Shown here: one piece after another, positions 1,794-41,803 of the stretch
Layout of the letters: the number at the start of each line of letters is the position of its first letter
How positions within the stretch are numbered: the first letter of the stretch is position 1
Sequence record: OQ076693
Length of the DNA stretch: 64,000 nucleotides
Direction: 5' to 3' (one strand)
From: Escherichia phage PNJ-6
Program-made: the position numbers and the translations under genes
The notes under the pieces: model-generated
Database searches by the model: none
The model's input: the letters and a program-made list of their open reading frames with translations, nothing else
What the model was told of the DNA's origin: nothing

Positions 1794-2972
1794 TTAGAAA
1801 TATTTTTTGTATGAATTGATTACATTTTGGTCTACATCATTATCAATTTGTGCGACAAGATAAGAACTGATTTCAACTTCCTGAGGAGCTGCTTGAACTA
1901 AATCGGAGTTCAGATATTCACGAATCCAAGGATACGGATGCTTGGTCGGAGCATCAGTGATTGGGCATGGCAAACCACACTGTTTCATACGAGACACAGT
2001 CAAGTAATCAACAAAAGCACACATACTCTGCGTATTGATACCTGGACATGTACCGTCTTTAAAGAGGTGTGCAGCCCATTCCTTCTCTTGTCTATTTACT
2101 TCCATAAAAATGTTAACTGCTTCTTGTTCACATTCTTTAGCAATTTGAACCCACTCATCACCATCAGCACCAGATTGAAGTTGACGGATAATGTACTGAG
2201 TACCCTTGAGGTGGAGTTGTTCGTCACGAGCAATGAACTTCATAATCTTTGCATTGCCTTCCATAATTTCCATATTTTTATGGAAGTTAAAGGTACATGC
2301 AAATGATACGTAAAAACGAATAGCTTCTAAGGCGTTGATAACATGCAAACAGAGATAAAGAGACTTCATTAAATCACGCTTAGCAGCGGCTTCTTGCTTA
2401 ATAGCACGTTCTAATTGAAGGTCTGCACCAATTGACGCTTTGGCTAGTTCCGTGAATTCTTTCTGGTTTTCCCAATGGCGGGTCTTGACTAGAACATCAT
2501 CGTAATATTTACCTATTGATTCAGCTCGTTTCATGATTGCTTCGTCTAATACAATCTCATCAAATACCTTAGATGGGTCTGTATAAAGATTTCGCATAAT
2601 ATGTGTATACGAACGAGAGTGAATAGTTTCACTGAAAGTCCATGTTGCAACCCATGTATCTAATGAAGGGTCAGAAATCAGTGCCATAAGTACCGCAGAT
2701 GGGGCCCTGCCTTGGATAGAATCTAATAATGATTGATACTTAAGATTGTTTGTAAAGATGTCCTGTTGGAACTGAGGAAGCTTATTGAACTGCGCAGAGT
2801 CCAACATCAAGTTTACCTCTTCTGGGCGCCAAAAAAATGATAATTGCTTTTCGGTCAAATCTTCAAAAACTTTATGGCGTTGAATATCATAACGCGCAAT
2901 ACCAAGACCAGAACCAAAGAACATCGGTTCATTCAAAACATCGACTTGTTGTGTGTTAAAAACTGTACTCAT
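1794..2972 (-). CDS. nrdB: aerobic ribonucleotide reductase small subunit
   Basis: 392-aa ORF with class Ia R2 iron-ligand regions (FSETIHSRSYTHI; ARDEQLHLKGTQYI); contiguous ORF, no intron interruption. Confidence 0.93.
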   Translation of the reverse strand: MSTVFNTQQVDVLNEPMFFGSGLGIARYDIQRHKVFEDLTEKQLSFFWRPEEVNLMLDSAQFNKLPQFQQDIFTNNLKYQSLLDSIQGRAPSAVLMALISDPSLDTWVATWTFSETIHSRSYTHIMRNLYTDPSKVFDEIVLDEAIMKRAESIGKYYDDVLVKTRHWENQKEFTELAKASIGADLQLERAIKQEAAAKRDLMKSLYLCLHVINALEAIRFYVSFACTFNFHKNMEIMEGNAKIMKFIARDEQLHLKGTQYIIRQLQSGADGDEWVQIAKECEQEAVNIFMEVNRQEKEWAAHLFKDGTCPGINTQSMCAFVDYLTVSRMKQCGLPCPITDAPTKHPYPWIREYLNSDLVQAAPQEVEISSYLVAQIDNDVDQNVINSYKKYF

Positions 2973-3025: not shown

Positions 3026-5281
3026 TTAAAGCTTACAAGCAGAACAATCTTCAGCTTTAGGTGTTTCTAATTCATAGTCATCTGTACCTGACCCATCACG
3101 AGTGTTATGATAGTAGAGGTTTTTTCCGCCAAAGTACCAGAAGTAAAGCAGATCGTCAAGCATTACTGACATTGGCACTTTACCTTTCTCGAATACTGCA
3201 GGGTCATAGTAAGTATTAGCAGAAGCAGATTGGCACACCCATTTCAACATGATAGCAACTTGGGTCAAATAAGGTTTATTACCTTTCTTAGCAAGTTTCC
3301 ACGCGTAGTCATAAAGACTCATGTTATGTTCTATATTAGGAACAACCTGACGGAAGTTGCCTTCTTTAGATTCTTTAATACTTACTGGACCGCGCGGAGG
3401 TTCGATACCGTTTGTAGAGTTTGATACTTGACTGCTTGACTCACAAGGCATGAGTGCAGACAACGTTGAGTTACGAATTCCATGTTCTTTGAGTTCAGCT
3501 CGAAGTTCTTCCCAGTCACAGACGTAGTTCGGGGCTGCGATTTGGTCAATCTTTTTATTGTACCAGTCGATAGGTAATTCGCCTCTAGACCATTTAGTGT
3601 CTGAATAATACTCACAAGGTCCTTTTTCTTTGGCGAGTTTGATTGAAGCTTTGATAAGGCCATATTGCAATCTCTCAAACAATTCATGAGTCAAATCGTT
3701 AGCGTCTTCATATGAAGCAAAGTTAGAAGCTAACCATGCGGCATAGTTCGTCACACCAACACCGAGGTTTCGACGCTTTTTGGCTTTTAAAGCTTCTGGA
3801 ACAGGATAATCTTGATAATCTAACAGGTTATCAAGTGCACGTACTTGTACTTCAGCAAGTTCATTAATTTTATCTTGGTCTTGCCAATCAAATTTATCTA
3901 ATACAAAAGCAGATAATGTGCATAAACCAATTTCAGCATCAGGACCATTCACGTCATTAGTCGGAATAGCGATTTCACAACATAAGTTACTCTGACGAAT
4001 TGGAGCTTTTTCGCGAATAAACGGAGTGTAGTTATTCGTGTTATCAACGAATTGTGGATAAATTCGAGCAGTGCCAGAACGTTCAGTCATGAACAATTCA
4101 AAGAGTTCTAGTGCTTTGATTCTTTTCTTTCTGATTGTCGGGTCTTTTTCAGCTTTCTCATAAAGCTCACGGAATTTATCTTGATCTTCAAAGAACGAGT
4201 AGTATAGTTCGCCTGACATTTCGTGAGGGCTAAATAAAGTAATATAATCATTTTTACCAAGGCGTTCCATCATAAGGTCATTAATCTGAATTCCGTAGTC
4301 CATATGTCGAATACGGTTTTCATCCACACCTTTGTTATTTTTCAGAACTAATAGGTTCTCTACTTCTAAGTGCCACATCGGATAATACGCTGTAGCAGCA
4401 CCACCACGAATACCACCTTGAGAACAAGATTTTACTGCAGTTTGGAAATGTTTCCAGAATGGAATAACACCTGTATGTCGAACTTCACCCATACCGATCT
4501 TAGAACCTTCTGCACGAAGCATACCAACGTTGATACCGATACCAGCTCGTTTAGAAATATATTCAATAATTGATGCTGAAGTTTTGTTAATAGATTTTAA
4601 CGAATCACCGGCTTCAATAACTACACAACTAGAGAACTGGCGAGTCGGAGTACGAGCACCTGCCATAATTGGGGTTGGCAATGAAACTTGATGAGTAGAA
4701 ACGGCATCATAAAAACGAATAATATGTTTCAAACGGTCATGAGTTTCGTCTTGATGTAAGGCCATACCAATAGCCATGATAGCAAACTGGGGAGTTTCAT
4801 AAATCTTCCCAGTTGTTTTATCTTTAACTAGATATTTTTCTTTAAGCTGCATAGCACCAGCATAAGTCAGGTCAAAATCTCGCTCATGTTTAATCTGTGA
4901 ATCGAGATAAATGATTTCTTCTGCAGAATATCTAGACAACAACTCAGGGTCGTATTTGCCTTCATTAACACAGTAAGAAATATGGTCGATAAAAGCAGGC
5001 GGTTCAAACTGCCCGTATACATCTTTACGAAGTGCAAACATTAATCCTTTAGCGGCGACATACTGATAATCAGGTTCTTCGACAGAAATCGAGTTAGCTG
5101 CAACTTTAATACAAATCTTCTGAATATCTTTGGTGCTCATCCCATCGACAAGATGGGTTTTAATTTCTTCGTACAATTCATATGGGTCAATTTGTGTTCC
5201 TTCACATTGCCAAGTTAAGACTTGAATAATTTTCTGTGCATCAAAATTTTGGGATACACCACTGCTCTTAGTTACTTGCAT
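3026..5281 (-). CDS. nrdA: aerobic ribonucleotide reductase large subunit
   Basis: 751-aa ORF; catalytic-site region SNLCCEIAIP, C-terminal redox cysteine pair (DCSACKL); adjacent to nrdB. Confidence 0.93.
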   Translation of the reverse strand: MQVTKSSGVSQNFDAQKIIQVLTWQCEGTQIDPYELYEEIKTHLVDGMSTKDIQKICIKVAANSISVEEPDYQYVAAKGLMFALRKDVYGQFEPPAFIDHISYCVNEGKYDPELLSRYSAEEIIYLDSQIKHERDFDLTYAGAMQLKEKYLVKDKTTGKIYETPQFAIMAIGMALHQDETHDRLKHIIRFYDAVSTHQVSLPTPIMAGARTPTRQFSSCVVIEAGDSLKSINKTSASIIEYISKRAGIGINVGMLRAEGSKIGMGEVRHTGVIPFWKHFQTAVKSCSQGGIRGGAATAYYPMWHLEVENLLVLKNNKGVDENRIRHMDYGIQINDLMMERLGKNDYITLFSPHEMSGELYYSFFEDQDKFRELYEKAEKDPTIRKKRIKALELFELFMTERSGTARIYPQFVDNTNNYTPFIREKAPIRQSNLCCEIAIPTNDVNGPDAEIGLCTLSAFVLDKFDWQDQDKINELAEVQVRALDNLLDYQDYPVPEALKAKKRRNLGVGVTNYAAWLASNFASYEDANDLTHELFERLQYGLIKASIKLAKEKGPCEYYSDTKWSRGELPIDWYNKKIDQIAAPNYVCDWEELRAELKEHGIRNSTLSALMPCESSSQVSNSTNGIEPPRGPVSIKESKEGNFRQVVPNIEHNMSLYDYAWKLAKKGNKPYLTQVAIMLKWVCQSASANTYYDPAVFEKGKVPMSVMLDDLLYFWYFGGKNLYYHNTRDGSGTDDYELETPKAEDCSACKL

Positions 5282-23873: not shown

Positions 23874-24506
23874 TCACAGTACGTTAGTTACAAGGGTAAT
23901 GATTTCTTTGGACACATTAGGGAAGTCGATGTAAGTATATTTACCACCGATCTTAATCTTAACATCATTTTCAAGAGAAGTAAACAGCTTTGATTCAGTT
24001 TCTGACATGTTGTATGCAAAGATTCTAAGAGAACCATTTCGACGAATTTCGATCTGACGAATACCTAGAACTCGTTTTGCAAATCGAACTTCCAAGTTAC
24101 TACGGTTTTCACCAATTTCTTTAACTTCAACTTTATCTTTAATATTTTCAAAAACAAAGTTTGCTAATTCATGCATTTCAGGAGTAACTCCACGTGCTTT
24201 TCTAGTGTTACGTTTCTGAAGAAGTTCTGGAGCATTTTCTTGGGCAAAGAGGTCTGCAGCTTTTTGGATAATATCCATTGCTTCGCCTGTTGCTATAAGT
24301 CCATCACCAGATTTTTCGACTAAACCTTTCTTAATCAATACACCAATGTTAGAGTTAACAACCGATGCATTGTATTCCGCTTCCAGAGCTTCACGGACGT
24401 TGGCAGCAGTGGTGAAGTTGTTCTTAATGATATAAACCATTATTGCAGCAGTTTTTTCATTCAGAGCGTTTTCAGAAGCTTTGATGATGTAAGTAACTTT
24501 AGACAT
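23874..24506 (-). CDS. motA: middle-transcription activator MotA
   Basis: 210-aa ORF; T4 MotA-like N-terminus (MSKVTYIIKAS...) and conserved region NSNIGVLIKKGLVEKSGDGLI; early promoter upstream. Confidence 0.88.
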   Translation of the reverse strand: MSKVTYIIKASENALNEKTAAIMVYIIKNNFTTAANVREALEAEYNASVVNSNIGVLIKKGLVEKSGDGLIATGEAMDIIQKAADLFAQENAPELLQKRNTRKARGVTPEMHELANFVFENIKDKVEVKEIGENRSNLEVRFAKRVLGIRQIEIRRNGSLRIFAYNMSETESKLFTSLENDVKIKIGGKYTYIDFPNVSKEIITLVTNVL

Positions 24507-24580
24507 TTTATTTCTCCAAATTAGTATTTGTTTTGATAGGTCTATAATATCATGTTTGAAGCAAAAGTAAACTTTATTTT
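24498..24580. repeat. duplicated promoter-leader-start module, copy 1 (motA)
   Basis: About 83 bp nearly identical to 24818-24900, spanning the first three codons (MSK), leader and early promoter. Confidence 0.75.
24544..24572 (-). promoter_or_regulatory. T4-type early promoter for motA (-35 GTTTAC, 17 bp, -10 TATTAT)
   Basis: rc of 24567-24572 is GTTTAC; 17-bp spacer containing TTGCTTC; rc of 24544-24549 is TATTAT; 38 nt upstream of the motA ATG. Confidence 0.6.
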
Positions 24581-24610: not shown

Positions 24611-24826
24611 TTACAAACTCATTTCTTTAATAAGGCCAATAAGTTTTGCCTTTTTAGAACGAAGCTTTTCTAAATGATGTCCATTTGAACCGCGAACCAC
24701 TAAAGAATTGATTTCAACTTCTAAGAAATTTAATTCTTCAAAAAGTGCTTTACGGGGAGCATTCATACCAGGTTTAACTTTACCAAAACGAGTAGTTGTG
24801 TTTTGGGTTAATTTCATTTTAGACAT
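24611..24826 (-). CDS. hypothetical basic protein
   Basis: 71-aa ORF whose promoter, leader and first codons duplicate those of motA. Confidence 0.5.
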   Translation of the reverse strand: MSKMKLTQNTTTRFGKVKPGMNAPRKALFEELNFLEVEINSLVVRGSNGHHLEKLRSKKAKLIGLIKEMSL

Positions 24827-24900
24827 TTTATTTCTCCAATTTGGTTGTTTTGTTTTGATAGGTCTATAATATCATGTTTGAAGCACATGTAAACTGTTTT
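24818..24900. repeat. duplicated promoter-leader-start module, copy 2 (ORF 24611..24826)
   Basis: Near-identical to 24498-24580 with small indels. Confidence 0.75.
24866..24894 (-). promoter_or_regulatory. T4-type early promoter, duplicate of the motA promoter
   Basis: Near-identical copy of 24544-24572 (GTTTAC, 17 bp, TATTAT) upstream of ORF 24611..24826. Confidence 0.6.
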
Positions 24901-33431: not shown

Positions 33432-35247
33432 AGGACATCCATTCTTTACGAAGTTCTGAATCATCACCCAACAACATTTCAAAGAGTTCTTTCCAATTTT
33501 CAGGAAGTTTAACTACGTCGTACACAGGGTTCTGAATCATTTCACGATATTCTGACTTTTCAAGGGAGCCCAATCCTTTGATGTATCGAATACTATGCTT
33601 AGGCAGTGTATCTTTAGCTTCTTCGTACTCAGCTACAGTATAAAACCATTTTTGAGTTTTGCCAATTTGTGCAATAATTACAGGCGTTTTAACAAAGCGA
33701 ATACGTCCTTGTTCAAACAATTCAGGCCAATTACTAAAGAAAGCAAGCAAAGCCGGATAAATACTTCCAAGACCGTCATGATCGGCATCGGTCATAATCG
33801 CAATATTACGATAGTTCGTGTTCTCTGCCTTTTCACCAAGAATAAGACCTGTGATAGCACAGATATCAAAGAGCTCTTTGTTCTTCATCATATCAGCATA
33901 TGACATACCCCAGCTATTCATCACCTTACCACGTAATGGGAATCCACCGTGTAGTTCACGGTCACGAACATCAATGAGATAACCAATTGCCGAATCACCT
34001 TCTGTTAAGAACAATGTCGTATCTGCATCTTTACCACATTGGTTAGCTTTAATATGCTTATGAACCTTAGCTTTAGTTGCCTTTTTAGCTGCTTTAGTTT
34101 CTGCAGCCTTTTCTGCCGCCAATTTACGAGCTAATGCTGCTTCGACAATAGGCATAATCAAGGCTTCGTTTTTAAGAAGTGCCTGAGCAATTTTCTTAGC
34201 ATCTAATTGGATATGATTACGAATATCACCATACGTTGACGTTAAACGTTCTTTAGTCTGAGAATCAAAACGCATGTTGCTCATGTCTCTAATAAACATC
34301 AACATTGTGAGGCATTCTTTAACACGAGCTTTAGTGACTTCAATACCCTTATATTTCTTTTTAATACCCGGCAAAAGATGTTCGCAGATATCATCCATTA
34401 CACATTCAACATGATGACCACCGTTTTTAGTATGGATGTTATTCACATAAGTTAAATGACGGAAGCCGTCTGGTGATGTTGTGAATGCTATAGAGACTTT
34501 ATCATTTTCTTGAATAATGTTATCTTCACCAAATTGTTTAGCAAATCGTTTAAAATTACCATCAACCTTTTTACCATTAAATGTGAACTTGATATCAGGA
34601 TAAACGACTGCCAATGTTTGAAGTCGGTCTAAAGTAATATCTAAATAAATTTGAGATAAATTATGTTCTTCAAATGAAGAGAAATCAGGAGTGAAGATTA
34701 CTTTAGTGCCTTTACCTTTAGATTTCTTAGAAGACCATGATTTGTTTTCCATTCCGTTTGAACAGTTAACAGTGATTTCATTTTCACCATCTGACGTTAT
34801 GCCTGTAAACAACGTAGAGAAGATATTAGTTAAACTACTCCCGACGCCGTTCATACCACCAGTCTTACGTTCAGAGTCATCGCCAAAGTTACCGCCAGCC
34901 TTTGGAATAGTCCAGGCTGCTACAGGCCCAGGAATTTGTTCGCCTGTTTGGTCGGTAACTAAACCTTGAGGAATACCACGTCCGTTATCTTCCACCGAAA
35001 CTTGATTATTTTTAATTTGCACATCAATTTTATTTGCAAACTTAAATGATGTACGAATAGCTTCATCAACCGAGTTGTCAATAATCTCATCGATTAATTT
35101 AACCAGACCAGGAACATATTCAACTTGTTGATATTTACCAAACAAAAAACGCTCGTGGGCTTCTTTGGCCGAAGAACCAATATACATGCCACTACGTTTC
35201 TTAATATGTTCTACATCTGACAATACCTTAATTTCATTTTTAATCAT
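33430..35247 (-). CDS. 39: DNA topoisomerase II large subunit (GyrB-like ATPase + TOPRIM), single uninterrupted ORF
   Basis: 605-aa ORF; GHKL motifs (IDNSVDEA; DNGRGIP; GMNGVGSS) and TOPRIM (LTEGDSA; IMTDADHDG); one ORF covers what T4 splits between genes 39 and 60. Confidence 0.9.
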   Translation of the reverse strand: MIKNEIKVLSDVEHIKKRSGMYIGSSAKEAHERFLFGKYQQVEYVPGLVKLIDEIIDNSVDEAIRTSFKFANKIDVQIKNNQVSVEDNGRGIPQGLVTDQTGEQIPGPVAAWTIPKAGGNFGDDSERKTGGMNGVGSSLTNIFSTLFTGITSDGENEITVNCSNGMENKSWSSKKSKGKGTKVIFTPDFSSFEEHNLSQIYLDITLDRLQTLAVVYPDIKFTFNGKKVDGNFKRFAKQFGEDNIIQENDKVSIAFTTSPDGFRHLTYVNNIHTKNGGHHVECVMDDICEHLLPGIKKKYKGIEVTKARVKECLTMLMFIRDMSNMRFDSQTKERLTSTYGDIRNHIQLDAKKIAQALLKNEALIMPIVEAALARKLAAEKAAETKAAKKATKAKVHKHIKANQCGKDADTTLFLTEGDSAIGYLIDVRDRELHGGFPLRGKVMNSWGMSYADMMKNKELFDICAITGLILGEKAENTNYRNIAIMTDADHDGLGSIYPALLAFFSNWPELFEQGRIRFVKTPVIIAQIGKTQKWFYTVAEYEEAKDTLPKHSIRYIKGLGSLEKSEYREMIQNPVYDVVKLPENWKELFEMLLGDDSELRKEWMS

Positions 35248-35298
35248 GTTGTCTCCTCGTTATGAAGGTATTCTATCATCCGAAATCTAAAGCAAAAA

Positions 35299-35310
35299 GG
35301 GCCGAAGCCC
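35299..35310 (-). terminator. hairpin terminator after ORF 35311..35733
   Basis: GGGC-CGAA-GCCC followed on the minus strand by UUUUUGCUUU. Confidence 0.5.
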
Positions 35311-35733
35311 TTATTTAAATTTAATTTTCTGAAGTGCATCAATTGCAGCCAAACGACCTTGTTCACTTTTAACTGTAATGACCACATCACCTGATACGAT
35401 CACCGAACCATCAACGAATTCTATAGAGCCTTTTTTGAAATCGACAGTTGTATCTGGTTCCGGAACTTCTTCAAAGAATTTAAATTCTGCACCATAAATC
35501 AGAATATCACCTTGCATACTAATGATTGTACGTCCAGGTCCATCGGTTTCAGCGGCAATCATTGAAACACCGTAACCAATCATCTCTTCTACGATAAAAT
35601 CTCTTGATAATAAAACTGTATGCAGAGTGGTGTTAAGACGTTTACCAGTCGTATTAAGAATTCTCAAGAAATTATCTTCCTGTCCTTTGATAATACGATA
35701 TTTCTTACCAACTTCAAAACCTTTAAAAGCCAT
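35311..35733 (-). CDS. hypothetical protein
   Basis: 140-aa ORF followed by terminator hairpin 35299-35310. Confidence 0.5.
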   Translation of the reverse strand: MAFKGFEVGKKYRIIKGQEDNFLRILNTTGKRLNTTLHTVLLSRDFIVEEMIGYGVSMIAAETDGPGRTIISMQGDILIYGAEFKFFEEVPEPDTTVDFKKGSIEFVDGSVIVSGDVVITVKSEQGRLAAIDALQKIKFK

Positions 35734-35735
35734 AA

Positions 35736-35915
35736 TTAACCCTTCTTAAGTAAGTCGTAAAAACCACCGTTCACATGTTTAGGAGCAGAAACCCGACGAG
35801 TAGACAGACGATGACATTCAGGGCAAACATCGTTTTCTCGTTCAGAAATCCTTTTAATTTTTTCATATTCATGGCCACAATCTTCAGATTGACATTTATA
35901 GTCGTATAATGGCAT
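35736..35915 (-). CDS. small zinc-ribbon protein (59 aa)
   Basis: Below ORF-track cutoff; MPLYDYKCQSEDCGHEYE...VCPECHRLSTRRV has CxxxxC...CPxC zinc-ribbon spacing. Confidence 0.4.
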   Translation of the reverse strand: MPLYDYKCQSEDCGHEYEKIKRISERENDVCPECHRLSTRRVSAPKHVNGGFYDLLKKG

Positions 35916-35917
35916 TA

Positions 35918-36346
35918 TTATTCCTTAAAATGTGCTTTCAACATTTGATACAAAGACCACGCCTGGTCATTATTTTTGATAGTAATCGTCGTCACCGGAA
36001 ATTCAGACAATTCGTCAAGTTCACCAGAATCTTGCTCTTCAGACGCTTGATATGGATTTTCAACTTCGTCAAAGAACTCTGCTTCATTCGTGGAGAGCCA
36101 AATAAAGTTTTCATCAAGGATATCACCGCCTGTTGCGTATCCAACCATGCCAGTAGATGTCACAATTTTAGTAGGACGTCCAAGATGGTCAACATCTAAT
36201 ACTTTAAATGGTTCCATGCCAAGACGTCGTGCATAAATCCCATTATCAGTGTGGTCTTTAATAAACTCTTCTTGGGCACGTTTATCTATAAATTGGTACC
36301 ATGAGTTAACGCGGAATTTATTAGCCATTAGTAAGTTTCCTTCCAA
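35918..36346 (-). CDS. hypothetical protein
   Basis: 142-aa acidic ORF; start may be an internal ATG. Confidence 0.45.
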
Positions 36347-36555
36347 TAAGTTGTACCATTTTCAGTGATTTCACGGAAGATACCATAGATAGGCATTTCA
36401 TCACCGAGTTTTTCATAAACATAAACCACTTCAGTGTAGCATAAAAATTCGGTCCAGTTTTTCTGTACAACAACTAAATCAGGATTAAACAGAACATCTT
36501 CAAACTCATCGATGTTTGAATCAGTAGTTACGTTTTTAATGATTTGACGTTTCAT
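36328..36555 (-). CDS. hypothetical protein
   Basis: ORF 36328..36600 trimmed to the internal ATG with SD GAGGAGAA (MKRQIIKN...), 75 aa; promoter-like element 36576-36613 upstream. Confidence 0.45.
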
Positions 36556-36612
36556 AATATTCTCCTCTTGTTTTGATAGGTCTATAGTATCATAGACCAT
36601 AGTTGTTGTACA

Positions 36613-37098
36613 TCATTTTAGCAAAATAAAATCAACTTGTTCTGCCAATGAACGTCTAAACATTAATTGACAACTTCCGAGGATGAAATCAGGTGCTTCA
36701 TAGACCGCGATGTAGTATCCTTTAGCTTTCAAGAGTTCAACATCCACCTGGTCATCAAACCAGGCATAAACCGCGTCAACACTTTCAAATCCAAAATAAA
36801 ACCCTTGAGCCCAATCTTCACCCAATTCAAATGTGTGCTCAATTCTATAGTATCTTAAGATATTTTGTTCAAGGAGTTTGTCTTCATTTACTGTAGGACG
36901 ATTAGGGACATTGTAGTTGTCGCCATGATGGTAGAAGTTACCTGAGAGTATTCCATGCTTATCAAGGAACTCCCATGTTTCTTCAGAGTTGTCGGTGCCC
37001 GACCAACCGTATGGCGAACGAGGTTCTTTATTCCAAGAGGTTTCCCCAAATTCTGACGGCTTTACCGTCTTCGATAGCAATTCCTGGTAATGATTCAC
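36613..37098 (-). CDS. hypothetical protein
   Basis: 161-aa ORF; early promoter at 37165-37193. Confidence 0.5.
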   Translation of the reverse strand: MNHYQELLSKTVKPSEFGETSWNKEPRSPYGWSGTDNSEETWEFLDKHGILSGNFYHHGDNYNVPNRPTVNEDKLLEQNILRYYRIEHTFELGEDWAQGFYFGFESVDAVYAWFDDQVDVELLKAKGYYIAVYEAPDFILGSCQLMFRRSLAEQVDFILLK

Positions 37099-37164
37099 GT
37101 TGAGTACAAAAACTACGTTCTACGCGGTAAACTAACATATTATTCTCCTCTGGTTGATATGGTT

Positions 37165-37193
37165 ATAATATCAAAACCAGAGGAGAAGTAAAC
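37165..37193 (-). promoter_or_regulatory. T4-type early promoter (-35 GTTTAC, 17 bp, -10 TATTAT)
   Basis: rc of 37188-37193 is GTTTAC; rc of 37165-37170 is TATTAT; upstream of ORF 36613..37098. Confidence 0.55.
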
Positions 37194-37197
37194 AACT

Positions 37198-37617
37198 TTA
37201 TGCGAAAGCAGCTGGGCTATATTTTTTAATTTGGAATTCAGGAACTACCATGAACTGTCCAGCGAAAACGATGTTATAAAGCTTAACACCATCTTCTACC
37301 CAACGGTCACTAATAAATCCGGCGATTTGCTTAGTTTTCCACGGTGTTCCATCAGTTGCCGCAGCAATAGTGAATTCATGGTCTTTTTCAACAGAAACTG
37401 ATCTGCATAGTCCCCATTTGAACGCTTTTTCTTCTGGTTCAATGAATTGGCTTTTAACATAGCCAATATTACCATTAGCATCACGAACTTTAACTTGGTT
37501 ACGACCAAAAACCGGATCACTCACAGAAAGAACTTCAACCAACTTCCCGGCAACTTTAGAGCGAGAAGCAACAGATACATATACGTAATCACCTGTAGAG
37601 AGATTTACAATATTCAT
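37198..37617 (-). CDS. hypothetical protein, tandem paralog family member 1
   Basis: 139-aa ORF sharing N-terminal ASRSKVAGKLVEV and C-terminal GFISDRWVEDGVKLYNIVFAGQF with the next two genes. Confidence 0.55.
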   Translation of the reverse strand: MNIVNLSTGDYVYVSVASRSKVAGKLVEVLSVSDPVFGRNQVKVRDANGNIGYVKSQFIEPEEKAFKWGLCRSVSVEKDHEFTIAAATDGTPWKTKQIAGFISDRWVEDGVKLYNIVFAGQFMVVPEFQIKKYSPAAFA

Positions 37618-37626
37618 AATAATTCC

Positions 37627-38124
37627 TTAAGCTTTACGAGGAGACACATAGCGAGTGATTTCAGATTCTTTAACGACTCGGAAGTCACCTAAGAATACGA
37701 TATTGTATAACTTTTCACCATCTTCAACCCATTGGTCACTAATGAAGCCACACATGATATCAGTTTTGCTTGGATAACCGTATTCGTCGATGTAATCAAA
37801 TTCTTTATCGGTTATAAATTCAACGCCTTTGCAAAGGGCCCATTTGAACTGTACATTAGGCTCAGTGGATTCACATACGTATCCATCACGTGATTCAACT
37901 TCTTCAACAGAAGCAAATTTGACTCGTATATGTTTTTCCAAGAATTTAGGACTTACGTAAGCGTACTGAGTATCCTGACGTCCAAAACTAGGAATGATTC
38001 GAACTTTAACTTCTTTAACACGTCCCATGCCGTTAGTACGAAGCCCTGCTACTTCAACCAGACGACCTGCAGCTTTAGAACGAGAAGCAGGAGATACACG
38101 AAGGATTTCACCAATAGTAATCAT
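37627..38124 (-). CDS. hypothetical protein, tandem paralog family member 2
   Basis: 165-aa ORF; ASRSKAAGRLVEV and GFISDQWVEDGEKLYNIVFLGDF shared with neighbours. Confidence 0.55.
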   Translation of the reverse strand: MITIGEILRVSPASRSKAAGRLVEVAGLRTNGMGRVKEVKVRIIPSFGRQDTQYAYVSPKFLEKHIRVKFASVEEVESRDGYVCESTEPNVQFKWALCKGVEFITDKEFDYIDEYGYPSKTDIMCGFISDQWVEDGEKLYNIVFLGDFRVVKESEITRYVSPRKA

Positions 38125-38184
38125 AATTTCTCTCTTTGTTTAAATTGAATTTACTATACTCCATCCGTCCTTGGATGTACAACA

Positions 38185-38679
38185 TTAATTAAGGATATTA
38201 ACCACAGCACTACGTGGAACCACACTAAAATCACCTGCATGAACTACGTTCAGAAGTTCAACACCATCTTCAATCCATTGGTCAGTTACCCATCCATTTA
38301 CTGGACCAGCGAATGGGCGTCGAATTGAAACATATTTACACAATAAATCAGTAGGCTCAATAGGCTTAATCAGAGTACCGTACATACAAGCGATATCCAT
38401 ATCAAAGTGGAGACCATCTTTAACAGGTGCTTCTTCAATCAACAGTTCAAAGTCGGTGCTTGGAATGGCAGTAGTAGAAATTGTACCGTATGAATTTTTA
38501 ATTTCTAAGAATAACCAAGGGCCTTCAACTTGTTTGATGAAGTTAACAATAGTGAAACTATTACCTTGAGTGGCACCTAAAATTTCACAAAACTTTTCAT
38601 AAGTTCGCACTGAAGCACCGTACCAGTTGATTTGTTTTTCGTCTTTCAGGATGTAAGTAGCCGTAGTATTGATGTTCAT
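38185..38679 (-). CDS. hypothetical protein, tandem paralog family member 3
   Basis: ORF 38185..38721 trimmed to internal ATG with SD AGGAAA; C-terminal GWVTDQWIEDGVELLNVVHAGDF is paralogous to members 1 and 2. Confidence 0.5.
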   Translation of the reverse strand: MNINTTATYILKDEKQINWYGASVRTYEKFCEILGATQGNSFTIVNFIKQVEGPWLFLEIKNSYGTISTTAIPSTDFELLIEEAPVKDGLHFDMDIACMYGTLIKPIEPTDLLCKYVSIRRPFAGPVNGWVTDQWIEDGVELLNVVHAGDFSVVPRSAVVNILN

Positions 38680-38709
38680 AATGTTTTCCTGTTTGGTTAA
38701 GATAGAAAG

Positions 38710-38739
38710 ATTATACTCCAACCATCCTTGGTTGTAAAC
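38710..38739 (-). promoter_or_regulatory. T4-type early promoter (-35 GTTTAC, 18 bp, -10 TATAAT)
   Basis: rc of 38734-38739 is GTTTAC; rc of 38710-38715 is TATAAT; upstream of paralog 3; a similar element lies upstream of paralog 2 (38153-38182). Confidence 0.55.
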
Positions 38740-38744
38740 TGGTT

Positions 38745-39422
38745 TTATCGCTGTTTTACACTTAACGGGTCAGGATTCTCAGGGACATCTTCAAGGCCAA
38801 GCGCATAACGCTGAGCATATTTTAACATCAAAATATCTTTAGCACAATCATGAATACTATCATGGGCAACGAATCCTTTTAACGTACCCATCGGTAATGG
38901 ACACATACTTAATCCTCGTGTCAACGAGTAAGCTTCGATTGCTGTACGAATATCACGTTGAGCCCAGAATTTAACCGGTTCTAATTTATCAGTATCAATA
39001 TCTGGTTCAAGAACACCTTCATCACGATAGAGGTCACGAATCAAATCGACCAAGATCGGGAAGTCAAAGCTCATACCACGGCACCACATCTGTGATTTCC
39101 ATTGGTCAACTTTATTAGCTCGGCAATAGTCTAAAAAGATTTTAATGCCTTCAAGCGTAGTGACATCGTCTTCAGATGGAGCCAAGTTTTTACGTGCTTC
39201 AGCCGATTGTTCTTTCCACCATTTCATAGTGGATTTAGCGAAAACTCGCTTCCCTTTCTGAGAAGCCAAATTAAATTTAATTCGCTTACCTCGTTGAACA
39301 AGTTCTTCAAATGATTCAACAACTTCAGGGTCGGAATTATATGCAATAACCGCAAGGTCAATAACAGCCGCTTTTGATGTATTGCCGAATGTTTCAAAAT
39401 CTATAATAACATCAGTGCTCAT
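38745..39422 (-). CDS. dexA: exonuclease A (DEDD-type 3'-5' exonuclease)
   Basis: 225-aa ORF with N-terminal Exo I motif (VIIDFETFG) and later acidic motifs; upstream of dda as in T4. Confidence 0.82.
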   Translation of the reverse strand: MSTDVIIDFETFGNTSKAAVIDLAVIAYNSDPEVVESFEELVQRGKRIKFNLASQKGKRVFAKSTMKWWKEQSAEARKNLAPSEDDVTTLEGIKIFLDYCRANKVDQWKSQMWCRGMSFDFPILVDLIRDLYRDEGVLEPDIDTDKLEPVKFWAQRDIRTAIEAYSLTRGLSMCPLPMGTLKGFVAHDSIHDCAKDILMLKYAQRYALGLEDVPENPDPLSVKQR

Positions 39423-39431
39423 AATTTTCTC

Positions 39432-40745
39432 TCAAATAAAATGGACGTCAAACCGACCACGAGTTGTGCCGACATACAATAACTGTTTAGCTAATTCTGA
39501 ATCGGCGTAATGGATACACGGTGTATAAACAAAGGCCGTGTCAACAGACATACCCTGGGCCTTATGGAAGGTTGATACTGGTAGTGCCTTCACCTTAGTG
39601 AACATACGTTTAGCATCCCAGAATTCGCTCCATGGAGCTTTACCACCTTTATTCCAAAATTTGTATGTTTCTGCGGTCTTAGCCAAAAACAAATTGAATT
39701 TATAAAGCTCTTCTTCAGAAGAAATAACCTTTATATCTTCGCGGATGTATTCTTCATCATCCCCATACGTTTCTACTGTAAGATTCCAGTATCGTATCAT
39801 ATATTCGCCTGAAACACCACGTGCTTTAACGAATGTAGACGTTTCTACAGCATCTCGAATACGAACGAATTGACCGTTATTGAAAAGCATTTCGGTCATA
39901 TTTTTACCATCTAGCTTATATGTCTTAGTAAACGGCTCTTGTAGAACAATGACTTCGTCTTTAATAAATGGTTTTTCTGTTTCAAGAAGTTTTCGGCGAA
40001 TAATTGAATTTAACTTGTCCACCGACTTATTTGTGAATGCCATCATTCGATTTTCGAAAAGGTCTTCAGGAGTTTTAACGACGTTAAAATAGTTCATCAT
40101 ATACGATTTAAGGTCTGTATATCCGTGAACACCGTGCCCATCAACTACTTTATCGTAAATCCATTTGCCATTACGAATATCAGTCGCAACATCAATAATT
40201 GGTGCATTGCTACGTTTAACTTCTGTAAGGTTGCATTGCACGAAGTCTTTGTGAGTGAAGAAAGGACTTAGATACGCAGTTGATTCGCCTGGGTCTACCG
40301 GACGAATCTGGCATCGGTCGCCGATTCCAATTACTGTACACCATTTAGGGATACTAGCTAACATTATTTTAAACAGAGAACGGTCGCACATTGACGCTTC
40401 ATCAAATAACAGTACACGACACAAGGCTAAGTCTGGAACCTTTTTCTGTTCAAATAATACGTTTTCTTCGTATGTAGTTGGGTTGATTTTAAGAATGCTA
40501 TGAATAGTCGATGCTTCTTGACCAGCAAGTTTGCTTAGAACCTTTTTAGCAGCATGTGTAGGGGCCGCTAAAATAATACCTGATTCTCCGGCAGAAATAA
40601 GAGCTTCAACGATGAATCTAGTAAGGGTTGTTTTACCTGTACCAGCAGGCCCATTAATAGTTACGTGATGTTTCTTTTCTTTAATAGCGTTCATAACAAC
40701 GTTGAAGGCGTTTTTCTGGCCTTCAGTCAAATCATCAAATGTCAT
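39432..40745 (-). CDS. dda: Dda SF1 DNA helicase
   Basis: 437-aa ORF; Walker A (GPAGTGKTT), Walker B region (LLFDEASM), SF1B helicase motifs. Confidence 0.9.
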   Translation of the reverse strand: MTFDDLTEGQKNAFNVVMNAIKEKKHHVTINGPAGTGKTTLTRFIVEALISAGESGIILAAPTHAAKKVLSKLAGQEASTIHSILKINPTTYEENVLFEQKKVPDLALCRVLLFDEASMCDRSLFKIMLASIPKWCTVIGIGDRCQIRPVDPGESTAYLSPFFTHKDFVQCNLTEVKRSNAPIIDVATDIRNGKWIYDKVVDGHGVHGYTDLKSYMMNYFNVVKTPEDLFENRMMAFTNKSVDKLNSIIRRKLLETEKPFIKDEVIVLQEPFTKTYKLDGKNMTEMLFNNGQFVRIRDAVETSTFVKARGVSGEYMIRYWNLTVETYGDDEEYIREDIKVISSEEELYKFNLFLAKTAETYKFWNKGGKAPWSEFWDAKRMFTKVKALPVSTFHKAQGMSVDTAFVYTPCIHYADSELAKQLLYVGTTRGRFDVHFI

Positions 40746-41053
40746 CGTAAAGTCCCTGCAATTGGAATACTAACAATACGGCCTGTGTCCAGGATTCGTT
40801 GATACAATTTTTGCGTCTCCGCATCTAGTTTAATGCGTTTCATTTCAAGCTTATTAAACCAGAACTTACGCGGAGTTTCGACCATTCTTAGAACTCCCAT
40901 TTTTAAATCTGTTTTATACTGGGTTTTCAAAGTATCGAAAACTTTATCTGCAATATCCTTTCTAAAAAATACTGCAGGACGATGCTCATCAAGTGGAACC
41001 GGGACAGTAAATCCTTCCATATCTCGATAAACTATTGCATATACATAAACCAT
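40742..41053 (-). CDS. hypothetical protein
   Basis: 103-aa ORF, ATGA-coupled to dda. Confidence 0.5.
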   Translation of the reverse strand: MVYVYAIVYRDMEGFTVPVPLDEHRPAVFFRKDIADKVFDTLKTQYKTDLKMGVLRMVETPRKFWFNKLEMKRIKLDAETQKLYQRILDTGRIVSIPIAGTLR

Positions 41054-41055
41054 AA

Positions 41056-41803
41056 TTAACCTTTAATAAGTTGGAATAATGATGCGCTAAGTGGTAAGCC
41101 ACGTTTCAATTTTAATTTACCAATGAAACCGATCTTTTCAAAACGTTGCAGACCTTGGATAACTTTATCATATGTATCGAAAAGCGATTCAGCGTCAGTT
41201 AATTTAGTTTTAGTTTTCCAGTCAGAGCCTTTAAGAAGAACGTTGAGTTTAGTAAGTTCATGGCCTTCTGCTTGATGTGAGCCATTAATGCGTGCTTTCA
41301 AAGCAACAATTCTAAGTTTAGATTCGTTAGATAAAGGTTGATTTTTCATCATGTTCGCCATATGCTTAACACGATTTTCACGTTTTGCTCGGATTTTTAA
41401 AATAGTACCATAAACCTTTTTAATTTGGGCCCATTTCTTCTCGTCGAGATTAAGTTTCTCTACTTTACGGGCAGAAGGATTAGCGATACGTCTTGCAATG
41501 GCATCACGTTTTTCAATAAGTTCTTCTAATGTTAAATCAGAACGAGCCGTGTTATATTTTTTTCTTAACTGGGATAACATTACCTTTAATGTAGCCTATA
41601 TCATTATTAAAACGTTCTAAGGATAATTTCTCACCTTCAACAGAGTTATTGAAAGATTCACCTGAGTAAGCGCAGACCTTTTGATCAAGAATGTTTTTAA
41701 GGTAATTAAAGTCTAAGTTAAAATCCTTAGAGCGTCTCTTCGCAGAAGCTCTGGTGTGGTCAAGACGACGATTGATTTTGTTAATTTTATTATTAGATAA
41801 CAT
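41056..41803 (-). pseudogene. HNH-type nuclease-like gene split by a frameshift at an A7 tract (two ORFs 41552..41803 and 41056..41580)
   Basis: Upstream ORF has a degenerate HNH_3-like motif (KVCAYSGESF...LSLERFNNDIGYIKGNV) and stops right after it; the downstream 174-aa ORF is in the +1 frame and overlaps it at a run of 7 A (41557-41563 on the + strand). Confidence 0.4.

What the first reader, a model, noticed from the sequence alone, without database searches (positions are those of the whole stretch)
37198..38721. Three tandem paralogous genes with duplicated promoters
The three adjacent ORFs (139, 165 and 164-178 aa) share an N-terminal ASRSK(V/A)AG(K/R)LVEV block and a C-terminal G(F/W)(I/V)(S/T)D(R/Q)W(V/I)EDG...L(Y/L)N(I/V)V...G(Q/D)F block. 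Members 2 and 3 also have similar upstream promoter segments (TATACTCCA...CCTTGG). Tandem paralog arrays in phage early regions are often fast-evolving host-interaction modules.
Basis: seen in the sequence. Interest (0 to 1): 0.5.

Follow-up and report, generated by a model that had tools for sequence, protein, structure and literature searches.

The report
MotB-family early gene cluster, RB69-like phage
The three neighbouring genes are the already described motB.1, motB and second-motB genes of an RB69-like T4-type phage: early proteins that share one small C-terminal domain and, for MotB, coat DNA and interfere with the host silencer H-NS. This makes the finding real but ordinary.

Summary
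Three adjacent minus-strand genes (37198-37617, 37627-38124, 38185-38679) share a significant C-terminal block. Only ORF1 and ORF2 share the N-terminal ASRSK-AG-LVEV block; ORF3 has a different N-terminal domain. All three pass Pfam's cut-off for PF17613 (MotB).

The window is a Mosigvirus (RB69-like T-even phage, 95-97% identical to phages ST0 and HX01). The cluster lies at the canonical place between dexA and cef. ORF2 is MotB, ORF1 is a linker-less second MotB found only in Mosigvirus, and ORF3 is an intact MotB.1. A 2021 paper already states that RB69 has two motB copies plus motB.1.

The two similar upstream segments are T-even early promoters (GTTTACA-N17-TATAAT type). Their spacers are 14/17 identical, against 37% on average for early promoters in this window. 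In other genera motB.1-type genes have no promoter of their own, so a copied promoter cassette is likely.

The genes evolve faster than dda and dexA but are under purifying selection (dN/dS 0.13-0.27).

By-products: the T4 reference motB.1 (119 aa) looks like a frameshift error, since 13 other T4 records encode 143 aa. RB69's 29-aa ORF is the detached MotB.1 tail.

The parts
38710..38739 (-). Early promoter of ORF3 (motB.1): GTTTACA, 17-nt spacer ACCAAGGATGGTTGGAG, TATAAT
   Evidence: It is the best sigma-70-like site in 35000-41500, matching 11 of 12 positions, and is of the T-even GTTTAC type. NBG1 (MH243438) carries a promoter annotation in this same dexA-motB.1 interval. It is conserved in Mosigvirus relatives.
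38185..38679 (-). ORF3, an intact MotB.1 (164 aa): different N-terminal domain (reported as LSm-like for T4 MotB.1), then a linker, then a MotB-type C-terminal domain of about 50 residues
   Evidence: PF17613 scores 35.8 bits (cut-off 25) on residues 88-159, and phrog_2333 gives E 1.9e-81. It is 35-36% identical in the N-terminal domain to T4 and T4-like MotB.1 and shares the C-terminal domain. The AlphaFold2 model has pLDDT 81.5. BFVD matches include T4 P39415, which is MotB.1.
38153..38183 (-). Early promoter of ORF2-ORF1 (motB operon): GTTGTACA, spacer TCCAAGGACGGATGGAG, TATAGT
   Evidence: In relative L004 the same site reads TTTACA-17-TATAAT.
37627..38124 (-). ORF2, the MotB orthologue (165 aa): KOW/SH3-like N-terminal domain 1-63, disordered linker 66-89, beta-barrel C-terminal domain 90-165
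   Evidence: PF17613 E 2.5e-38 with full-length coverage, and phrog_1671 E 2.8e-64. It is 45% identical to T4 MotB. AlphaFold2 pLDDT is 79, with the linker below 50.
37198..37617 (-). ORF1, a second, short MotB paralogue (139 aa) lacking the flexible linker and one N-terminal-domain loop. It starts 9 nt after the ORF2 stop codon, and its Shine-Dalgarno sequence AAGGA overlaps that stop.
   Evidence: PF17613 75.9 bits and phrog_1671 E 6.3e-51. The alignment gaps fall at ORF2 residues 44-50 and 66-89. In the phage collection 207 records match at >=80% identity and none between 60% and 80%; the listed ones each hold two places. All other records match below 60% through their ordinary motB.
37139..37197 (-). 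Adjacent, outside the finding: the promoter of the motB.2 homologue (-35 GTTTAC at 37193 to -10 TATTAT at 37165), embedded in a strong hairpin that pairs the promoter spacer with the Shine-Dalgarno sequence GAGGAG
   Evidence: The RNA fold is -23.9 kcal/mol with z -6.2. The same arrangement, with different stem sequence, is present in T4 and L007.

Best explanation
This is the motB.1-motB-motB' cluster of a Mosigvirus (RB69-like T-even phage). It is a set of early, dispensable host-takeover genes.

Shown here: all three proteins end in the same small, all-beta C-terminal domain (core GW/F-V/I-T/S-D-Q/R-W-V/I-E-D-G-x-x-L-x-N-V/I-V-x-x-G-x-F-x-V-V). ORF2 and ORF1 attach it to a KOW/SH3-like N-terminal domain carrying the SRSKAAG motif. 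In ORF2 the two domains are joined by a disordered linker whose length varies between strains; in ORF1 they are joined almost directly. ORF3 attaches the same C-terminal domain to a different N-terminal domain.

Inferred from orthology with T4 MotB, on which the published experiments were done: ORF2 binds double-stranded DNA without sequence preference, whether the DNA is host or modified phage DNA. It changes how H-NS and StpA sit on DNA, is toxic to the host when over-produced, and raises burst size about two-fold. ORF1 most likely has the same DNA-binding chemistry with a rigid geometry. The function of ORF3 (MotB.1) is unknown. The published suggestion for its N-terminal domain, made for T4 MotB.1, is an LSm-like and possibly RNA-related fold.

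Transcription, read from the sequence: host sigma-70 RNA polymerase starts at two T-even early promoters. One lies in front of ORF3 and one in front of ORF2, with ORF1 co-transcribed and probably translationally coupled to ORF2. The ORF3 promoter is most likely a copy of the motB promoter. It would have been acquired during the Mosigvirus-specific rearrangement that placed motB.1 directly after dexA and moved the motB.2 cassette downstream. The breakpoint of that rearrangement lies exactly at the GTTTAC -35 element.
For: Family:
- PF17613 hits are above the curated cut-off for all three proteins, and the PHROG families are MotB-like.

Identity of the phage and annotation of the genes:
- The region is 95-97% identical at the DNA level to Mosigvirus phages, where these genes are annotated as MotB-like or transcriptional regulators.

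Synteny:
- The order is dda-dexA-[cluster]-motB.2-cef-goF.
- PMC7827196 states that RB69 has two motB copies and one motB.1, and that MotB and MotB.1 share the C-terminal domain but not the N-terminal domain.

Structure:
- The AlphaFold2 models show two beta domains. The ORF2 linker, residues 66-89, is disordered and corresponds to the segment missing in ORF1.
- A profile-profile comparison of the MotB and MotB.1 alignments gives probability 99.8%. The confident part runs from the LCK motif to the end.

Function:
- Published data on T4 MotB are in PMC6070864 and PMC7827196.

Promoters:
-.
- In 12 non-Mosigvirus loci the motB.1-type gene directly follows motB.2 with no promoter.
- The sequence diverges from other genera immediately after GTTTAC downstream of dexA, and the displaced GTTTACTTCTCCTC cassette reappears in front of motB.2.

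Selection:
- All copies are intact in 4-6 relatives, with dN/dS 0.13-0.27.
Against: - No experiment has been done on any Mosigvirus copy. DNA binding and H-NS effects are transferred from a T4 orthologue that is only 45% identical.
- Which domain binds DNA is not known even for T4.
- The small inverted repeat in the two promoter spacers is no more stable than shuffled sequence (z -0.6 and -1.2), so these are not clear promoter-plus-stem-loop cassettes.
- The promoter-copy scenario is an inference from similarity and synteny. Convergence on a favoured spacer is not excluded.
Confidence: 0.85

Rival explanations
1. The shared C-terminal domain is not the DNA-binding part. Instead it is a common docking or oligomerisation module, for example for H-NS/StpA-DNA filaments, for RNA polymerase, or for pairing between the paralogues. 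It would bring different N-terminal nucleic-acid-binding domains (KOW-like, LSm-like and others) to the same target. On this view the cluster acts as a combinatorial set rather than as three redundant DNA binders.
For: - The C-terminal domain is the most conserved part of the family. It is 74-88% identical across proteins whose N-terminal regions are unrelated and whose lengths range from 143 to 252 aa. These include forms with two extra N-terminal modules, and KOW N-terminal domains fused to a MotB.1-type C-terminal domain.
- KOW and LSm-like folds are themselves nucleic-acid binders (PMC7827196; PMC12152347).
- T4 MotB copurifies with H-NS and StpA.
Against: - No interaction data exist for the isolated domains.
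- Copurification with H-NS required DNA (PMC7827196 abstract).
- SH3-like barrels also bind nucleic acids directly.
Confidence: 0.2
2. ORF1 is a decaying, redundant duplicate of motB with no function of its own. The promoter similarity is only the T-even early promoter consensus.
For: - ORF1 is shorter, lacks the linker and has no promoter of its own.
- The family lies in a dispensable region (PMC6070864).
- Neighbouring family members are frameshifted in some database records.
Against: - ORF1 is intact at 139 aa in all six Mosigvirus sequences compared, with dN/dS 0.15.
- About 207 phage records match it at 80-100% protein identity.
- It passes the Pfam cut-off three-fold.
- The spacers of the two promoters are 14/17 identical. 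This is the second most similar of 91 promoter pairs in the window, and spacers are not part of the consensus.
Confidence: 0.08
3. The resemblance among the three ORFs is a chance or compositional effect.
For: Only the ORF3 similarity is short, at 29-36 residues.
Against: - Pairwise E-values are 5e-28 and about 1e-10.
- All three pass a curated Pfam threshold.
- The profile-profile probability is 99.8%.
- The motif occurs nowhere else in the six-frame translation of the window.
Confidence: 0.01

Closest known systems
T4 MotB (gene motB, Pfam PF17613 'Modifier of transcription')
   Same: ORF2 has the same length class, the same two-domain layout, the SRSKAAG motif and the same position upstream of cef. 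It is 45% identical, with a full-length Pfam match. ORF1 has the same two domains.
   Different: ORF1 lacks the inter-domain linker and is a second copy found only in Mosigvirus. In T4 motB has its own early promoter whose -10 hexamer is enclosed by a 7-bp stem. In this window the small inverted repeat lies in the spacer and is not significantly stable.
T4 MotB.1 / RB69 MotB.1 (PHROG 2333)
   Same: ORF3 has the MotB.1-type N-terminal domain (35-36% identical to the T4-type protein, 95% to RB69), the DPTDLL linker motif and the MotB-type C-terminal domain.
   Different: ORF3 is intact at 164 aa. The reference records of T4 (119 aa) and RB69 (132 aa plus a 29-aa ORF) are frameshifted. ORF3 also has its own promoter and follows dexA directly, whereas in T4 motB.1 follows motB.2 with no promoter.
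PeSL elements (promoter-early stem-loop cassettes of T4-like phages; PMC2839356, PMC4122927)
   Same: There is a T-even early promoter of the form TTTACW-N17-TAYWAT followed by a Shine-Dalgarno sequence and a start codon. The element is repeated between short accessory genes in a hyperplastic region. A gene-order breakpoint relative to other genera falls exactly at the promoter.
   Different: No convincing stem-loop accompanies the two promoters of the finding. The neighbouring motB.2 promoter and the motB promoters of other genera do have well-supported stems.
GoF / Frd.2 / MotB.1 'LSm-like fold' family (PMC12152347)
   Same: ORF3 belongs through its N-terminal domain. GoF (35918-36346) and a GoF-like paralogue (35311-35733) lie 2-3 kb downstream in the same window.
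   Different: ORF1 and ORF2 do not have this N-terminal domain. The LSm-like assignment is a published structure prediction that I did not re-test in a way that resolves individual domains.

Membership tests
MotB family (Pfam PF17613) | Profile HMM match above the curated gathering score of 25 bits | tested here: met
   ORF1 scores 75.9 bits, ORF2 131.9 bits and ORF3 35.8 bits (C-terminal part only).
MotB family (Pfam PF17613) | N-terminal KOW-like domain with the SRSKAAG motif (canonical MotB, 'category 1' of PMC7827196) | tested here: met
   Met for ORF1 and ORF2. Not met for ORF3, which is therefore a MotB.1-type ('category 2') member rather than a MotB proper.
MotB family (Pfam PF17613) | Genomic position in the dexA-cef interval of a Tevenvirinae genome | tested here: met
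   Synteny with T4, RB69 and 17 further loci.
MotB family (Pfam PF17613) | Sequence-nonspecific DNA binding, alteration of H-NS footprints, and toxicity on over-expression | not testable with these tools
   Known only for T4 MotB (PMC6070864, PMC7827196).
MotB.1 subfamily (PHROG 2333) | MotB.1-type N-terminal domain together with a MotB-type C-terminal domain | tested here: met
   ORF3 matches phrog_2333 at E 1.9e-81 over its whole length. It aligns with T4 MotB.1 and the 143-aa form P0010. BFVD structure matches include T4 P39415.
LSm-like fold family (GoF, Frd.2, MotB.1) | Bent five-stranded antiparallel beta-sheet in the N-terminal domain | tested here: inconclusive
T-even early promoter | GTTTAC-type -35 element, 17-nt spacer, TATAAT-type -10 element, located upstream of an early gene with a Shine-Dalgarno sequence | tested here: met
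   ORF3 has TTTACA-17-TATAAT. ORF2 has TGTACA-17-TATAGT, and TTTACA-17-TATAAT in relative L004. Activity was not tested.
PeSL (promoter-early stem-loop) cassette | A stem-loop associated with the promoter | tested here: not met
   Folding of the two intergenic regions gives z -0.6 and -1.2 against shuffles. Only a 5-6 bp inverted repeat is present in each spacer.
PeSL (promoter-early stem-loop) cassette | Location at indel or rearrangement breakpoints in a hyperplastic region | tested here: met
   The order dexA-motB.1-motB-motB'-motB.2 in Mosigvirus contrasts with dexA-motB.2-motB.1-motB elsewhere. Sequence similarity to other genera ends right after GTTTAC.

The most novel reading that the evidence does not exclude
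The conserved roughly 50-residue C-terminal domain may be a Tudor/SH3-like docking module rather than an OB-fold DNA binder. T-even phages would then shuffle it onto different N-terminal nucleic-acid-binding domains (KOW-like, LSm-like and at least two others). The cluster would form a combinatorial tool-kit aimed at a single host target such as H-NS-coated DNA. The linker-less ORF1 and the linker-bearing ORF2 would impose different bridging geometries.
Probability: 0.15. Interest if true: 0.5.

Novelty: already known. Interest (0 to 1): 0.15.

Why it matters
The finding matters little as a discovery. The gene family, its paralogy, its domain layout and the two-motB-plus-motB.1 state of RB69-type phages are all published.

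Its practical value is for annotation and for experiment design:
- The intact 164-aa MotB.1 of this window, and the 143-aa form present in 13 other T4 records, show that the 119-aa T4 reference protein lacks most of the conserved C-terminal domain. The 119-aa version matches the 13.8 kDa protein reported in recent functional tests, whose gene was made by synthesis, so those tests probably used the truncated form.
- The Mosigvirus pair of MotB proteins, one with and one without the linker, is a natural experiment for asking what the linker does in DNA compaction or H-NS displacement.

Tried and rejected
- Sequence search of ORF2 against solved structures found nothing usable; the best hit had E 0.81.
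- I looked for a fourth copy or remnant of the C-terminal motif in all six frames of the window and found none.
- I tested whether the inverted repeat in the two promoter spacers (CAACCA/TGGTTG and CATCC/GGATG, one apparent compensatory change) is a real stem-loop. Its folding energy is no better than that of shuffled sequence, so I dropped it as a feature.
- I considered positive selection. dN/dS is 0.13-0.27, so there is no sign of it at whole-gene level.
- An HMM search of 1.84 billion cluster representatives for relatives of the MotB.1 family found only 25 representatives. I did not check their origin, but the family is clearly very small, in line with the published restriction to Tevenvirinae.
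- T4 motB.2 and the window's 161-aa ORF are unrelated to the MotB family despite the name.

Full report
**What is in the sequence**

Positions 37198-38739 carry three consecutive minus-strand genes:
- ORF1, 37198-37617, 139 aa.
- ORF2, 37627-38124, 165 aa.
- ORF3, 38185-38679, 164 aa from its ATG.

The alternative TTG start of ORF3 at 38721 lies inside the promoter, so the 178-aa reading can be discarded.

The pairwise similarities are as follows:
- ORF1 and ORF2 are 38% identical along their whole length (E 5e-28).
- ORF3 resembles both only in its last 30-36 residues (E 2e-10 and 4e-10).
- The N-terminal ASRSK-AG-LVEV block is absent from ORF3.
- The core motif G[FWY][IV][ST]D[QRE]W[IV] occurs three times in the six-frame translation of the 64 kb, once in each gene.

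**Identity**

All three proteins exceed the curated threshold of Pfam PF17613 (MotB, 'modifier of transcription'). ORF2 matches over its full length, and ORF3 matches only over residues 88-159. In PHROGs, ORF1 and ORF2 fall in the MotB-like family 1671, and ORF3 falls in family 2333.

The DNA is 95-97% identical to Mosigvirus phages such as ST0 and HX01, and about 94.5% identical to NBG1. The surrounding genes are dda, dexA, a motB.2 homologue, cef, goF and a T4 39.2 homologue. This is the well-known non-essential early region of T-even phages.

ORF2 is the MotB orthologue, 45% identical to T4 MotB. ORF3 is MotB.1. ORF1 is the second MotB copy that RB69 also carries.

This state is already in print. 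PMC7827196 reports that MotB and MotB.1 share a C-terminal domain but differ in their N-terminal domains, that one gene may have arisen from the other by duplication, and that RB69 has two copies of motB, one copy of motB.1 and a 29-aa peptide. PMC12152347 adds that the MotB.1 N-terminal domain is predicted to have an LSm-like fold, like GoF and Frd.2.

**Distribution and gene order**

The short copy, ORF1, is confined to one clade. About 207 phage records match it at 80-100% protein identity, and the listed ones each hold two places in the genome. Every other record matches below 60%, through its ordinary motB.

In six Mosigvirus sequences the order is dexA-motB.1-motB-motB'-motB.2-cef. In T4 and in 14 further loci from other T-even groups the order is dexA-motB.2-(motB.1-type gene)-motB-cef; three of those loci show no motB.2 match.

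The motB.1-type position is strongly domain-shuffled. Proteins of 143-252 aa carry the same C-terminal domain at 74-88% identity behind unrelated N-terminal regions. There are also KOW N-terminal domains fused to a MotB.1-type C-terminal domain.

A profile search of 1.84 billion cluster representatives finds only 25 members, so the family is very narrow.

**Structure**

AlphaFold2 models were built with family alignments.

*ORF2* (pLDDT 79) has three parts:
- a beta N-terminal domain at residues 1-63;
- a disordered stretch at 66-89;
- a five-stranded beta C-terminal domain at 90-165.

The two gaps of ORF1 in the alignment fall on the loop at 44-50 and on this disordered linker, so ORF1 is a linker-less MotB. 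The linker is also the part that varies in length among Mosigvirus MotB alleles of 151-165 aa. Longer database entries of 172-197 aa mostly also carry an N-terminal extension that looks like a miscalled start.

*ORF3* (pLDDT 81.5) has the following parts:
- an N-terminal domain at residues 1-82 with a helix;
- a hairpin;
- a less confident linker;
- a C-terminal domain at 116-163.

A profile-profile comparison aligns the two families from the LCK motif to the end, with MotB carrying an insertion of about 13 residues.

**Promoters**

A scan of the window finds 17 GTTTAC-type sites. Fourteen minus-strand ones were compared as candidate early promoters.
- GTTTACAACCAAGGATGGTTGGAGTATAAT, in front of ORF3.
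- GTTGTACATCCAAGGACGGATGGAGTATAGT, in front of ORF2.

Their spacers are 14/17 identical. Across the 91 promoter pairs of the window the mean spacer identity is 37% (sd 17%), and only one pair is more alike. Downstream of the -10 hexamer the similarity falls to background, about 40%.

In other genera the motB.1-type gene follows motB.2 without a promoter. There, the promoter after dexA is the GTTTACTTCTCCTC cassette, which in this window sits in front of motB.2. Similarity to those genomes stops right after GTTTAC.

The simplest reading is a rearrangement through the promoter elements, with the motB promoter copied in front of motB.1. This is in the spirit of the promoter-cassette shuffling described for T4-like phages (PMC4122927). 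It is an inference.

The small inverted repeat in the two spacers is not significantly stable. I therefore do not call these elements full promoter-stem-loop cassettes.

ORF1 has no promoter. Its Shine-Dalgarno sequence overlaps the ORF2 stop codon, so it is co-transcribed with ORF2 and probably coupled to it in translation.

**Evolutionary rate**

Among four to six Mosigvirus sequences all three genes are intact:

| Gene | dN/dS | mean dN | mean dS |
|---|---|---|---|
| motB.1 | 0.13 | 0.026 | 0.19 |
| short motB | 0.15 | 0.042 | 0.28 |
| motB | 0.27 | 0.107 | 0.39 |
| dda | 0.02 | 0.002 | 0.13 |
| dexA | 0.03 | 0.003 | 0.08 |

The cluster is a local hot spot of divergence, probably helped by allele exchange, but it is under purifying selection.

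**Mechanism**

Shown here: family membership, domain layout, promoter architecture and conservation.

Inferred from T4 MotB: nonspecific binding to host and modified phage DNA, copurification with H-NS and StpA, altered H-NS footprints, toxicity on over-expression, and a two-fold gain in burst size (PMC6070864; PMC7827196).

Unknown: which domain binds DNA, what MotB.1 does, and why Mosigvirus keeps a linker-less MotB.

The main rival that remains is that the shared C-terminal domain is a docking or oligomerisation module rather than the DNA binder.

**Verdict**

The finding is a real, correctly located feature, but it is an already described gene family in its already described RB69-type configuration. 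Its interest as a discovery is low.

The useful by-products are annotation corrections for T4 and RB69 motB.1, a probable frameshift in the window's motB.2 homologue, and two well-supported RNA stems around neighbouring early promoters. These are listed under 'noticed in passing'.

Noticed in passing
L002 (T4 NC_000866.4) 2205-2400, minus strand; compare window 38185-38300: The T4 reference motB.1 (119 aa, 13.8 kDa) has an extra G (ATTGGAAGATGG instead of ATTGAAGATGG). This cuts off the conserved C-terminal domain, whose remainder (EDGVELLNVVHAGEYSVVPRSAVVAILN) is readable in the next frame. Thirteen other T4, T4T, RB55 and RB59 records encode an intact 143-aa protein in a single tblastn piece; only AF158101.6 and NC_000866.4 need two pieces. 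The 143-aa form is seen on 256 contigs. PMC12152347 had its constructs made by gene synthesis, cites NC_000866.4 coordinates for the amber constructs, and reports a 13.8 kDa MotB.1. The protein tested there probably lacked this domain.
   Followed up: yes
L003 (RB69 NC_004928) 3370-3873, minus strand: The RB69 reference motB.1 carries two single-T insertions relative to the window, which gives a 132-aa ORF plus a 29-aa ORF. The 29-aa ORF, RB69p012, reads LKTVVELLNVVHAGDFSVVPRSAVVNILN. That is simply the detached tail of the MotB.1 C-terminal domain. This explains the 'category 3' 29-aa peptide of PMC7827196. Another relative, L019, also has a split motB.1 of 93 + 85 aa.
   Followed up: yes
window 36613-37138, minus strand; G-run at 37044-37047: The motB.2 homologue starts at the ATG at 37138. 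It has one extra G in a G-run compared with RB69 and NBG1, which both encode a 174-aa protein. The frame therefore breaks after codon 31. The 161-aa GTG ORF listed at 36613-37098 is the downstream part. This is either a true frameshift or a homopolymer sequencing error.
   Followed up: partly
window 37139-37197, minus strand: The motB.2 promoter (GTTTAC-16-TATTAT) lies inside a strong hairpin of -23.9 kcal/mol, z -6.2. The 5' arm of the hairpin is the promoter spacer and the 3' arm is the Shine-Dalgarno sequence GAGGAG. Read-through transcripts would therefore hide the ribosome-binding site, while transcripts started at this promoter would not. The same design, with different stem sequences, is present in T4 and in L007-type phages. 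From my own knowledge, it resembles the arrangement described for T4 genes e, soc and 49.
   Followed up: partly
L002, L007-L020, about 80 nt upstream of motB (alignment A8): In non-Mosigvirus T-even phages the -10 hexamer of the motB early promoter is enclosed by a 7-bp stem. All 84 cells are paired, 4 of 7 pairs show compensatory changes, and several G-U pairs occur. Slid controls are only 30-46% paired. The G-U pairs point to an RNA structure in read-through transcripts.
   Followed up: yes
window 24507-24572 and 24830-24894, minus strand: Two nearly identical promoter plus 5'-leader cassettes (spacer 88% identical) lie in front of motA (23874-24506) and of a 71-aa ORF (24611-24826). Both ORFs begin MSK. 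This is the most similar promoter pair in the window.
   Followed up: no
window 35311-35733 and 35918-36346, minus strand: GoF and a second, GoF-like 140-aa protein both match phrog_622 (E 1.6e-38 and 2.9e-19). The GoF-like protein also matches the MotB.1 family weakly (E 0.0044). The region therefore holds a second paralogue set, which overlaps the first through the N-terminal domain of ORF3.
   Followed up: no
window 37627-38124 (ORF2) and proteins P0121-P0154: MotB alleles of Mosigvirus at 75-95% identity differ in length (151-165 aa) almost entirely through indels in the acidic inter-domain linker. Longer database entries (172-197 aa) mostly also carry an N-terminal extension, MLYIQGWMEYNEF..., that reads through the promoter and is probably a miscalled start.
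   Followed up: partly
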